This document shows, one piece after another, positions 1,162 to 2,759 of a stretch of 10,240 nt of DNA (position 1 is its first letter; every line of letters starts with the position of its first letter). Below the pieces are notes generated by a model. It had not been told where the DNA came from, ran no database searches, and worked only from the letters and a program-made list of their open reading frames with translations. Origin of the DNA: a virus (lineage: Duplodnaviria; Heunggongvirae; Uroviricota; Caudoviricetes); the IMG/VR virus record IMGVR_UViG_2778261087_000006. One strand, written 5' to 3'. The translations under genes were made by a program, and so were the position numbers.

Positions 1162-1962
1162 TTACTTGATAAATCCTGCCGCCTTTCCCCGCCTGTATTC
1201 CTCCATCAGCCACTGCGCCGGTGTTATTCCTCCCAGGGTGGCGGCGTTAGGCATGCACCCGAAACTTCGCCCTGGCGGGTGGTAAACGTCTCTCCCTGTG
1301 TCCGGAGGCGTACTCATGGGTTCTGGCTTTGCCTGTATGCTGATCACCGGATCGGGTATCTGCTGTCCGGAAGCCACCTTTTTCGCCCAATCATCGAGCA
1401 GCCTGCGCGCGTGTTTCTCAACCTCAATCTCGCTAAGCTGGCGCTGATACATTGCACGGCGGGTGTCACATACAACCCAGTACATAACCGGATGCCGCCA
1501 CGGGAATCTTTCGGGACCACCAGGATATAAACTTTTTTCCTTGCTGTACCGGTGAAACTCCGCCATCACATCGTCAATGGTGACGCCAAGAACCATCTTG
1601 CTGTCTTTGCACCACTTGATAAATTGCCCTGGCGACGGCCAGAACGGAGATTCACTGGCGCGGGCGTGGCGCATACCAGCAGAAACCTGTTCACGGGTTC
1701 GGATCCCCCCTTCGGCAAACGCAGCAATCCACTGCTGTTTTGCAGCAACTTCCTGCTCTGGCGTCTTCAGGTTGGTTACCACTGCCGCCGGAAACAGTTG
1801 TTTCAACTGTTTGAAAAGGGCATCAACAAGCCTCTCTGCTGACATGTTCACCACATTGTCATTGTTGACGTACTGATGCTCATAACCTGACATGCGAGAA
1901 AGGGCTTCTCCGTCACGGTTTTGTATCGCGGTAAAAACGTTGTTCACAAGAAATCCTCCCAC
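1162..1962 (-). CDS. P: Replication protein P-like (DnaB helicase loader), lambda P family
   Basis: Clear similarity to remembered lambda P: ...QQWIAAFAEGGIRTREQVSAGMRHARASESPFWPSPGQFIKWCKD... versus lambda ...RQWVLAFRENGITTMEQVNAGMRVARRQNRPFLPSPGQFVAWCRE.... Start is uncertain: GTG at 1962 overlaps the O-like gene end, with in-frame ATGs at 1893 and 1845. Confidence 0.85.
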   Translation of the reverse strand: MGGFLVNNVFTAIQNRDGEALSRMSGYEHQYVNNDNVVNMSAERLVDALFKQLKQLFPAAVVTNLKTPEQEVAAKQQWIAAFAEGGIRTREQVSAGMRHARASESPFWPSPGQFIKWCKDSKMVLGVTIDDVMAEFHRYSKEKSLYPGGPERFPWRHPVMYWVVCDTRRAMYQRQLSEIEVEKHARRLLDDWAKKVASGQQIPDPVISIQAKPEPMSTPPDTGRDVYHPPGRSFGCMPNAATLGGITPAQWLMEEYRRGKAAGFIK

Positions 1963-2759
1963 GCTTCAGGGCTGTTCCAGTGCGGAACGTTGTTATCAGG
2001 TAATGTTGATTGCTTCTGTCTGCTAATCTGCAGCCGCCTTGCCAGCTTCTGCTCCCACTGTGCCTGATGGTATGCCTTACCCTCAGCCATCCAGTAAATT
2101 CTGAACTCTGCAAGTTCCTGTGCCGTTGGCAGACTGTCCAGGTAGATTCCCTGCAATGAGCTTTTCCGAAGAAAGTCATCTGATGGCTGCCATTGTTCAT
2201 GCATGACAAATTTGCCTAATTGCCCTGGCCCACCTGGAGGAACAAAGTTATTCATCACGGCGTTGTTTGCGCCGGGGTCATGGGGCACGGAATCCCCGAT
2301 TTTTGTCCTGCTCTCCCTCTCTTGGTTAAATGACTGGTTATATGACTGGTTCTGGATCCCGTTTTTGGGATCATTCAACATCCCGTTTTTGGGATCATTC
2401 AATATCCCGTTTTTGGGTATATTCCCGTTTTCGGGAACATTACCGTTTTCGGGTTCATTACCCCCTTCCCGGTTGCCTTTAATGTTCCCTTTTTTGGTTA
2501 TATTAAGAGAGAAAACCCGTACTCTTTTCGTCGCCCCCTTTCTCTCTCCGGTATCTGAAATAAGCCCCATTTTCATGAGCGATATAAGCCCGGCCTGCAC
2601 GGTTTTTTTATTCAGGCAAGTGTCTTTAACGAGGCGTTCTATGCTGGGGTAGCAGAGGTTATATTCATCGGCTCTGTCAGCCATCGAGAGCAGTATGAGC
2701 TTTAATGACGAGCTCCCTGGATCTGTCTCCCAGGCCCAATCTGTTGCATGTCTGCTCAT
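1944..2759 (-). CDS. Replication initiator, O-like (N-terminal HTH domain, repeat-rich linker, C-terminal domain)
   Basis: Sits immediately upstream of the P-like gene. ATG at 2759 has GGAG 8-11 nt upstream. Central N/G/P-rich peptide repeats (PENGNVPENGNIPKNG...) are encoded by the iteron array, as in lambda O. N-terminal domain is not lambda-O-like in sequence. Confidence 0.75.
   Translation of the reverse strand: MSRHATDWAWETDPGSSSLKLILLSMADRADEYNLCYPSIERLVKDTCLNKKTVQAGLISLMKMGLISDTGERKGATKRVRVFSLNITKKGNIKGNREGGNEPENGNVPENGNIPKNGILNDPKNGMLNDPKNGIQNQSYNQSFNQERESRTKIGDSVPHDPGANNAVMNNFVPPGGPGQLGKFVMHEQWQPSDDFLRKSSLQGIYLDSLPTAQELAEFRIYWMAEGKAYHQAQWEQKLARRLQISRQKQSTLPDNNVPHWNSPEAWEDFL
2354..2460. 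repeat. Iteron array, putative origin of replication inside the O-like gene
   Basis: Five direct repeats with core CCCGTTTT(T/C)GGG starting at 2358, 2382, 2406, 2424 and 2443 (spacing 24, 24, 18, 19 bp). Preceded by tandem ATGACTGGTT x2 (2330-2352) and followed by a more A/T-rich stretch (about 2480-2520). Confidence 0.6.

What the first reader, a model, noticed from the sequence alone, without database searches (positions are those of the whole stretch)
2330..2520. Iteron-type origin embedded in the O-like gene, encoding a repetitive P-x-N-G linker
Five CCCGTTTT(T/C)GGG cores, each a small dyad, at 24/24/18/19-bp spacing, with an ATGACTGGTT tandem upstream and an A/T-richer stretch downstream, all inside the initiator ORF. 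This is the lambda-ori architecture, but the repeat sequence and the initiator N-terminal domain are not lambda O's. It points to a distinct initiator/iteron specificity pair working with a canonical P-type helicase loader.
Basis: partly seen in the sequence, partly recalled or inferred. Interest (0 to 1): 0.45.

Follow-up and report, generated by a model that had tools for sequence, protein, structure and literature searches.

The report
Phage replication origin inside its initiator gene
The repeats are almost certainly the replication origin of a common phiV10-like E. coli prophage, lying inside the gene for the protein that binds them; this is the well-known lambda/P22 arrangement built around a different initiator family, so it is real but not surprising.

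Summary
There are five CCGTTTTYGGG cores at 2359-2453, spaced 24/24/18/18 bp and not 19 (0.32 expected by chance). A sixth copy at 2485-2500 is mutated, and a 12-bp tandem lies at 2323-2351. All sit in the linker of a 271-aa initiator (1944-2759, minus strand) with an HTH_36 N-domain and a DnaT-like C-domain. A lambda-P-type loader gene follows, overlapping by GTGA.

The window is a phiV10-like prophage found in 424 of 5426 complete E. coli genomes.

The repeats are selected as DNA, not as a peptide:
- In 72 loci sharing the N-domain (36-100% identity), the core is about 115-fold enriched just after the N-domain.
- 21 loci have copies in two or more reading frames.
- PKNG/PENG peptides use Pro=CCC in 65/65 cases (14% elsewhere in these genes).
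- Clades with an altered wing or recognition helix carry different dyads.
- Genes with an unrelated N-domain but the same C-domain and P (TL-2011b, Tyrion) lack the repeats.

A second element, CAGAAYC plus three 12/13-mers, follows the repeats family-wide.

No binding or replication experiment exists. No fetched record annotates an origin here. I rate it a new member of a known kind, of modest interest.

The parts
1944..2759 (-). O-like replication initiator gene (271 aa). It comprises an N-terminal HTH_36 winged-helix-type domain, a repeat-encoded linker and a DnaT-like C-terminal domain.
   Evidence: ORF. Pfam HTH_36 (aa 18-67, E = 1.8e-10) and DnaT (aa 184-252, E = 1.2e-15). PHROG 1032 'replication initiation protein', E = 2.3e-107.
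2496..2759 (-). Coding region of the N-terminal domain (about aa 1-88), the presumed iteron-binding domain. It carries the conserved ...RKT... helix and DTGERKG wing motif.
   Evidence: Alignment A1, with invariant residues including K52, T53 and D69-T70-G71-E72. The wing/helix motif tracks repeat type across loci.
2485..2500 (-). Iteron 0, degenerate in this window (gene sense TAACCAAAAAAGGGAA). It is intact (CCAAAAACGG) in phiV10 and in most close relatives.
2440..2455 (-). Iteron 1 (gene sense AACCCGAAAACGGTAA).
2422..2437 (-). Iteron 2 (gene sense TTCCCGAAAACGGGAA), the best palindrome of the set.
2404..2419 (-). Iteron 3 (gene sense TACCCAAAAACGGGAT).
2380..2395 (-). Iteron 4 (gene sense ATCCCAAAAACGGGAT).
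2356..2371 (-). Iteron 5 (gene sense ATCCCAAAAACGGGAT), the last copy, directly abutting the CAGAACC anchor.
2316..2354 (-). Second conserved element: CAGAACC followed by tandem 12-mers (AACCAGTCATAT, AACCAGTCATTT, AACCAAGAGAGG). It is the candidate unwinding or loading segment.
   Evidence: TRF finds a 12-bp period with 2.4 copies. Three GAAYC units at 12/13 bp occur in 34 of 43 distinct loci. This position is the least stable segment in 37 of 48 loci.
2477..2507 (.). The most AT-rich, least stable stretch of the gene in this window (about 70% AT). It lies on the N-domain side of the array and is an alternative unwinding candidate.
   Evidence: dG -32.1 kcal/mol; 99.3rd percentile of the window.
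1965..2222 (-). Coding region of the DnaT-like C-terminal domain (aa 180-265), presumed to recruit the P-DnaB complex and/or bind ssDNA.
   Evidence: PDB sequence search: E. coli DnaT 9zbt_D, E = 6.7e-21, plus 4ou6/4ou7. Pfam PF17948.
1162..1947 (-). Lambda-P-type helicase loader gene (261 aa). It most likely starts at GTG 1947, overlapping the initiator's stop codon (GTGA).
   Evidence: PF06992, E = 1.5e-56. PHROG 109 'P-like helicase loader'. 31% identity to lambda P, E = 5e-36. The start is inferred from phiV10 p44, which is 786 nt.

Best explanation
This is the vegetative replication origin of a phiV10-like temperate phage, embedded in the linker-coding part of its own initiator gene.

Proposed mechanism:
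1. Dimers of the initiator's N-terminal HTH_36 (winged-helix-type) domain bind the five to six 16-bp dyads (consensus ATCCC-AAAAAC-GGGAT in gene sense). This builds an O-some-like nucleoprotein complex, and the central A-tracts favour bending.
2. An adjacent segment opens. This is most likely the conserved CAGAAYC plus 12-mer tandem at 2316-2354. The AT-richer 2477-2507 is the alternative.
3. The DnaT-like C-terminal domain brings in the lambda-P-type loader with host DnaB.

What is shown: the repeats, their significance, the domain and gene identities, DNA-level selection on the repeats, and their co-occurrence and co-variation with the N-domain.

What is inferred: binding, unwinding, loader recruitment, and origin activity itself.
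For: 1. Repeats are significant and confined to this site.
2. Gene context is an initiator followed by a translationally coupled P-type loader in the early operon of a phiV10-like prophage.
3. In 72 loci sharing the N-domain at 36-100% identity, across Enterobacterales, Vibrio, Pseudoalteromonas, Marinomonas, Acinetobacter and others, the core CC[AG]AA[AT][AT][CT]GG occurs 135 times in the 320 bp after the N-domain (5.9/kb) against 22 times elsewhere (0.052/kb). 34 loci have at least 2 copies.
4. Selection acts on DNA. Copies occupy all three frames (103/18/14), 21 loci use at least 2 frames, and 33 of 96 spacings are not multiples of 3. In peptides found at the protein level, Pro = CCC 65/65 against 14% background (p = 4e-47), Lys = AAA 48/48, Glu = GAA 17/17 and Asn = AAC 61/65.
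5. Dyad symmetry is maintained by two-sided changes: 175 of 228 cells are symmetric against 143.8 +/- 4.7 in shuffles, with 0 of 2000 shuffles reaching the observed value.
6. Specificity tracks the N-domain. Clades keeping the RKT helix and DTGERKG wing keep the CC...GG core. Clades with altered wings (Sphingobium L132, Desulfovibrionaceae L140/L150, Min27) have unrelated dyads at the same position. Mantel r = 0.57.
7. Module swaps agree. TL-2011b and Tyrion keep the DnaT-like C-domain and P, have unrelated N-domains and lack the repeats. GF-2 joins this N-domain, its repeats and the 12-mers to a lambda-O C-terminal half that is 62% identical to lambda O aa 156-299.
8. There is precedent. Lambda and P22 origins lie at the equivalent place in their initiator genes (PMC8022706, PMC7466680).
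Against: - There is no experimental evidence of binding or of origin activity for this phage or for any HTH_36-type relative, either in what I could search or in the annotations of the records I fetched.
- The AT-rich segment is weak here compared with lambda. The family-conserved side is only about 63% AT in this window, and the most AT-rich stretch lies on the opposite flank.
- The region also folds well as RNA (z = -3.4), so an RNA-level role is not excluded by energetics.
- Co-inheritance of the repeats with the adjacent N-domain coding sequence would arise from physical linkage alone. The Mantel correlation is confounded by phylogeny.
- The N-domain fold and its dimeric state could not be modelled (pLDDT 34.5).
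Confidence: 0.78

Rival explanations
1. The repeats are initiator-binding sites, but their main role is regulatory and the true origin lies elsewhere. Possible roles are autoregulation or roadblocking of O/P transcription, initiator titration, or handcuffing-type copy control.
For: Plasmid iterons do serve both initiation and negative control (PMC4980987, PMC5397158 and PMC3401445, listed). The AT-rich or unwinding element next to the array is weak in this window. Only 10 kb of the roughly 40-kb phage was examined.
Against: The position matches the experimentally defined lambda and P22 origins. A conserved second element and, in most relatives, an A-rich low-stability tract follow the array. 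In GF-2 this module replaces exactly the iteron and AT-rich half of the lambda origin. No other copy of the core exists in the window.
Confidence: 0.1
2. The dyads act at the RNA level. Small hairpins in the initiator mRNA would pause ribosomes between the two domains or modulate mRNA stability or O/P expression.
For: The sense RNA of 2316-2505 has an MFE of -50.3 kcal/mol against -38.1 +/- 3.6 for shuffles (z = -3.36), and each dyad is predicted as a hairpin. The arms co-vary in a way that would also preserve stems.
Against: The stems are only 3-6 bp. The 'loop' (the A-tract) is as conserved as the arms, and the flanking unit sequence (GAAT...) is conserved too. Dyad type changes together with the DNA-binding wing and helix of the adjacent domain. 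The arrangement mirrors proven DNA iterons in lambda and P22. Non-symmetric cells are mostly not G-U type.
Confidence: 0.06
3. The repeats merely encode a repetitive flexible P-x-N-G linker, with selection on the peptide and no role for the DNA.
For: In this window all five spacings are multiples of 3, so every copy encodes P-K/E-N-G. Copy number varies freely (4-9) among close relatives, as expected for a tolerant linker.
Against: Synonymous positions are frozen: Pro CCC 65/65, Lys AAA 48/48, Glu GAA 17/17 and Asn AAC 61/65. In relatives the same DNA motif is read in other frames as TQKR, SQNR or DPKT. P-to-T substitutions that keep the CCGAAAACGG core are common.
Confidence: 0.03
4. This rival concerns the second element only. 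CAGAAYC plus the 12/13-mers may be a conserved module-boundary sequence that persists because it mediates recombination between N-domain/iteron modules and different C-terminal domains. On this view it is not an origin component.
For: The C-terminal domain type changes immediately after this element: DnaT-like, lambda-O-like, Phg_2220_C and others. P22, from the other initiator family, carries GAATCAGTCA at the same relative position.
Against: The element is conserved from Acinetobacter to Vibrio and Sphingobium, with constant abutment to the last dyad, regular 12/13-bp periodicity and an adjoining A-rich low-stability tract. That pattern suggests direct functional selection.
Confidence: 0.2

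Closest known systems
Bacteriophage lambda ori with the O/P module
   Same: An array of dyad-symmetric repeats with an A-rich centre (lambda ATCCCTCAAAACGAGGGAT; here ATCCCAAAAACGGGAT) lies in the linker-coding middle of the initiator gene. A P-family helicase-loader gene follows, overlapping the initiator's stop codon, in the early rightward-type operon.
   Different: The initiator N-domain is HTH_36, not PF04492, with no detectable sequence similarity. The C-domain is DnaT-like rather than lambda-O C-terminal. There are five to six copies, all in frame here, whereas lambda's four fall in different frames. There is no strong 40-bp AT-rich tract. A CAGAAYC plus 12-mer tandem element is present that lambda lacks at that position.
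Phage P22 gene 18 origin and phage L gene 18 repeats
   Same: The origin is annotated inside the initiator gene with phage-specific repeats. [quoted passage not shown] P22 also has GAATCAGTCA between its repeats and its AT-rich tract.
   Different: P22 gp18 belongs to PF04492 and pairs with a DnaB-type helicase (gp12) rather than a P-type loader. Its repeat sequences are unrelated (CGGTAAA...TTTACCG).
HTH_36-type phage and prophage initiators (PHROG 1032 and relatives: Edwardsiella GF-2, Vibrio Her, Acinetobacter Acb75/AP22, E. coli PPompW, Burkholderia Bcep176, Stx phage Min27 O)
   Same: They share the N-domain family, a repeat array immediately after it, and in most cases the CAGAAYC/GAAYC 12/13-mer element.
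   Different: C-terminal domains and partner proteins differ: lambda-O-like with P, DnaB-like helicase, DUF6475 or Phg_2220_C. Repeat sequence differs by clade. None of the records I fetched annotates an origin.
E. coli DnaT (primosomal protein I), the database label for this gene
   Same: Residues 180-265 are clearly homologous to the DnaT C-terminal ssDNA-binding domain (E = 7e-21).
   Different: The N-terminal part is not DnaT. The protein is an origin-binding initiator fusion encoded by a phage, next to a P-type loader, so 'primosomal protein I' is a partial and misleading label.
Iteron plasmid origins (Rep_3/RepA-type: RK2, pPS10, F, R6K)
   Same: Multiple initiator-binding repeats lie next to tandem roughly 13-mers in an unwinding element. 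Rep proteins there bind one strand of those 13-mers (PMC4081077). That offers a possible analogy for the GAAYC 12/13-mers.
   Different: There is no Rep_3-type domain and no DnaA boxes nearby. The repeats are dyads inside a coding region, not intergenic direct repeats.

Membership tests
Lambda-type phage origin (ori inside the initiator gene, O/P module) | [quoted passage not shown] | tested here: met
   Five cores plus one degenerate copy at 2356-2500, inside ORF 1944-2759. Chance expectation is 0.32.
Lambda-type phage origin (ori inside the initiator gene, O/P module) | The initiator N-terminal domain belongs to the lambda O family (Pfam PF04492 Phage_rep_O) | tested here: not met
   The window protein hits HTH_36 (PF13730) only. 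Lambda O and P22 gp18 hit PF04492. BLASTP finds no similarity, and hhalign gives 2.9% probability.
Lambda-type phage origin (ori inside the initiator gene, O/P module) | An AT-rich, easily unwound tract immediately after the repeats, downstream in gene sense | tested here: inconclusive
   At family level the least stable 30-mer lies +3 to +36 after the last repeat in 37 of 48 loci. In this window that side is only about 63% AT (dG -35.2), and the least stable stretch (2477-2507) lies on the other flank.
Lambda-type phage origin (ori inside the initiator gene, O/P module) | A P-family helicase-loader gene directly downstream, translationally coupled | tested here: met
   PF06992, E = 1.5e-56. 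31% identity to lambda P, E = 5e-36. There is a GTGA overlap at 1944-1947.
Lambda-type phage origin (ori inside the initiator gene, O/P module) | The initiator binds the repeats, and the fragment supports initiator- and loader-dependent replication | not testable with these tools
   This needs EMSA or footprinting and a lambda-dv-type plasmid assay. The only indirect hint is a 41-kb circular phiV10-like 'plasmid' with no typed replicon.
HTH_36-type phage initiator with embedded repeat array (family delineated here; PHROG 1032 and relatives) | An N-terminal HTH_36 domain with the conserved ...RKT... helix and DTGERKG wing | tested here: met
   Pfam E = 1.8e-10. Invariant residues appear in alignment A1.
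HTH_36-type phage initiator with embedded repeat array (family delineated here; PHROG 1032 and relatives) | A cluster of CC-(A-rich)-GG dyads starting within about 100 bp after the N-domain coding part, conserved as DNA | tested here: met
   About 115-fold enrichment, multiple reading frames and frozen synonymous sites.
HTH_36-type phage initiator with embedded repeat array (family delineated here; PHROG 1032 and relatives) | CAGAAYC abutting the last dyad, followed by about three GAAYC units at 12/13-bp spacing | tested here: met
   The window has CAGAACC at 2348-2354 followed by 12-mers. Units 2 and 3 read TAACC instead of GAAYC.
DnaT / primosomal protein I (the database annotation of this gene) | Full-length homology to E. 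coli DnaT, including its N-terminal domain, and a chromosomal replication-restart context | tested here: not met
   Only aa 180-265 match DnaT residues 85-170. The N-terminus is HTH_36, and the gene sits in a prophage early operon next to P.
Plasmid iteron replicon (Rep_3/RepA type) | A Rep_3/WH1-WH2 initiator, intergenic direct repeats and DnaA boxes | tested here: not met
   No Rep_3 hit. DnaA-box matches in the window are at chance level and none is near the array. The repeats are intragenic dyads.

The most novel reading that the evidence does not exclude
The CAGAAYC anchor plus three tandem 12/13-mers (GAAYC...) abuts the last iteron in most HTH_36-type initiator genes. It does so whatever the iteron sequence, reading frame, C-terminal domain, helicase or loader partner, or host (Enterobacterales, Vibrio, Acinetobacter, Sphingobium). 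It may be a previously undescribed universal core element of this origin class. It could be a defined unwinding or ssDNA-binding site analogous to the 13-mers of oriC or RK2, recognised by a conserved part of the initiator or by a host factor. If so, it would allow base-accurate origin prediction in many prophages.
Probability: 0.3. Interest if true: 0.5.

Novelty: new member of a known kind. Interest (0 to 1): 0.3.

Why it matters
This module is in about 8% of complete E. coli genomes (424 of 5426). Public records label the gene 'primosomal protein I', 'DnaT-like' or 'HTH domain protein', and none of the records fetched annotates an origin.

Recognising the origin gives three practical things:
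- a testable minimal replicon (the ori fragment plus initiator plus P) for phiV10-type phages, which are used as E. coli O157 reporter and typing phages;
- a rule for locating origins across a large family of prophage initiators: an HTH_36 N-domain, then dyad repeats, then CAGAAYC and 12/13-mers;
- a natural series of initiator/iteron specificity variants for studying how winged-helix initiators change DNA specificity, and how co-resident prophages avoid cross-talk.

Conceptually it adds nothing beyond the lambda/P22 paradigm.

Tried and rejected
- **Structure prediction.** The AlphaFold2 single-sequence model of the initiator was unusable (mean pLDDT 34.5), so no fold search was run. The only homologues eligible for an alignment were near-identical E. 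coli copies.
- **Remote homology to lambda O.** BLASTP and hhalign gave nothing convincing. The topologically equivalent alignment (helix and wing just before the repeats) is suggestive only.
- **Polymorphism among same-length close relatives**. Mean diversity is lower in cores (0.021) than in spacers (0.051). Some sequences are out of register, which inflates segregating-site counts, so I treat this as weak support.
- **Mantel tests**. Repeat against N-domain gives r = 0.57, but N-domain against C-domain gives r = 0.54. Phylogeny confounds the result, and the set held no pairs with a close C-domain and a distant N-domain.
- **DnaA boxes.** Matches are at chance level and none is near the array.
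- **Terminator-like hits on the + strand** at 2366-2385 and 2390-2409. These are by-products of neighbouring dyad halves plus the T5 run. The stems are weak, and I reject them as terminators.
- **Literature.** I found no paper on a phiV10/epsilon15 origin. Searching for the motif string returned only unrelated primers.
- **Collection scans.** The first genome-contig scan failed because the alignment was too loose. The viral-contig scan returned only near-identical copies, which I used for copy-number variation.
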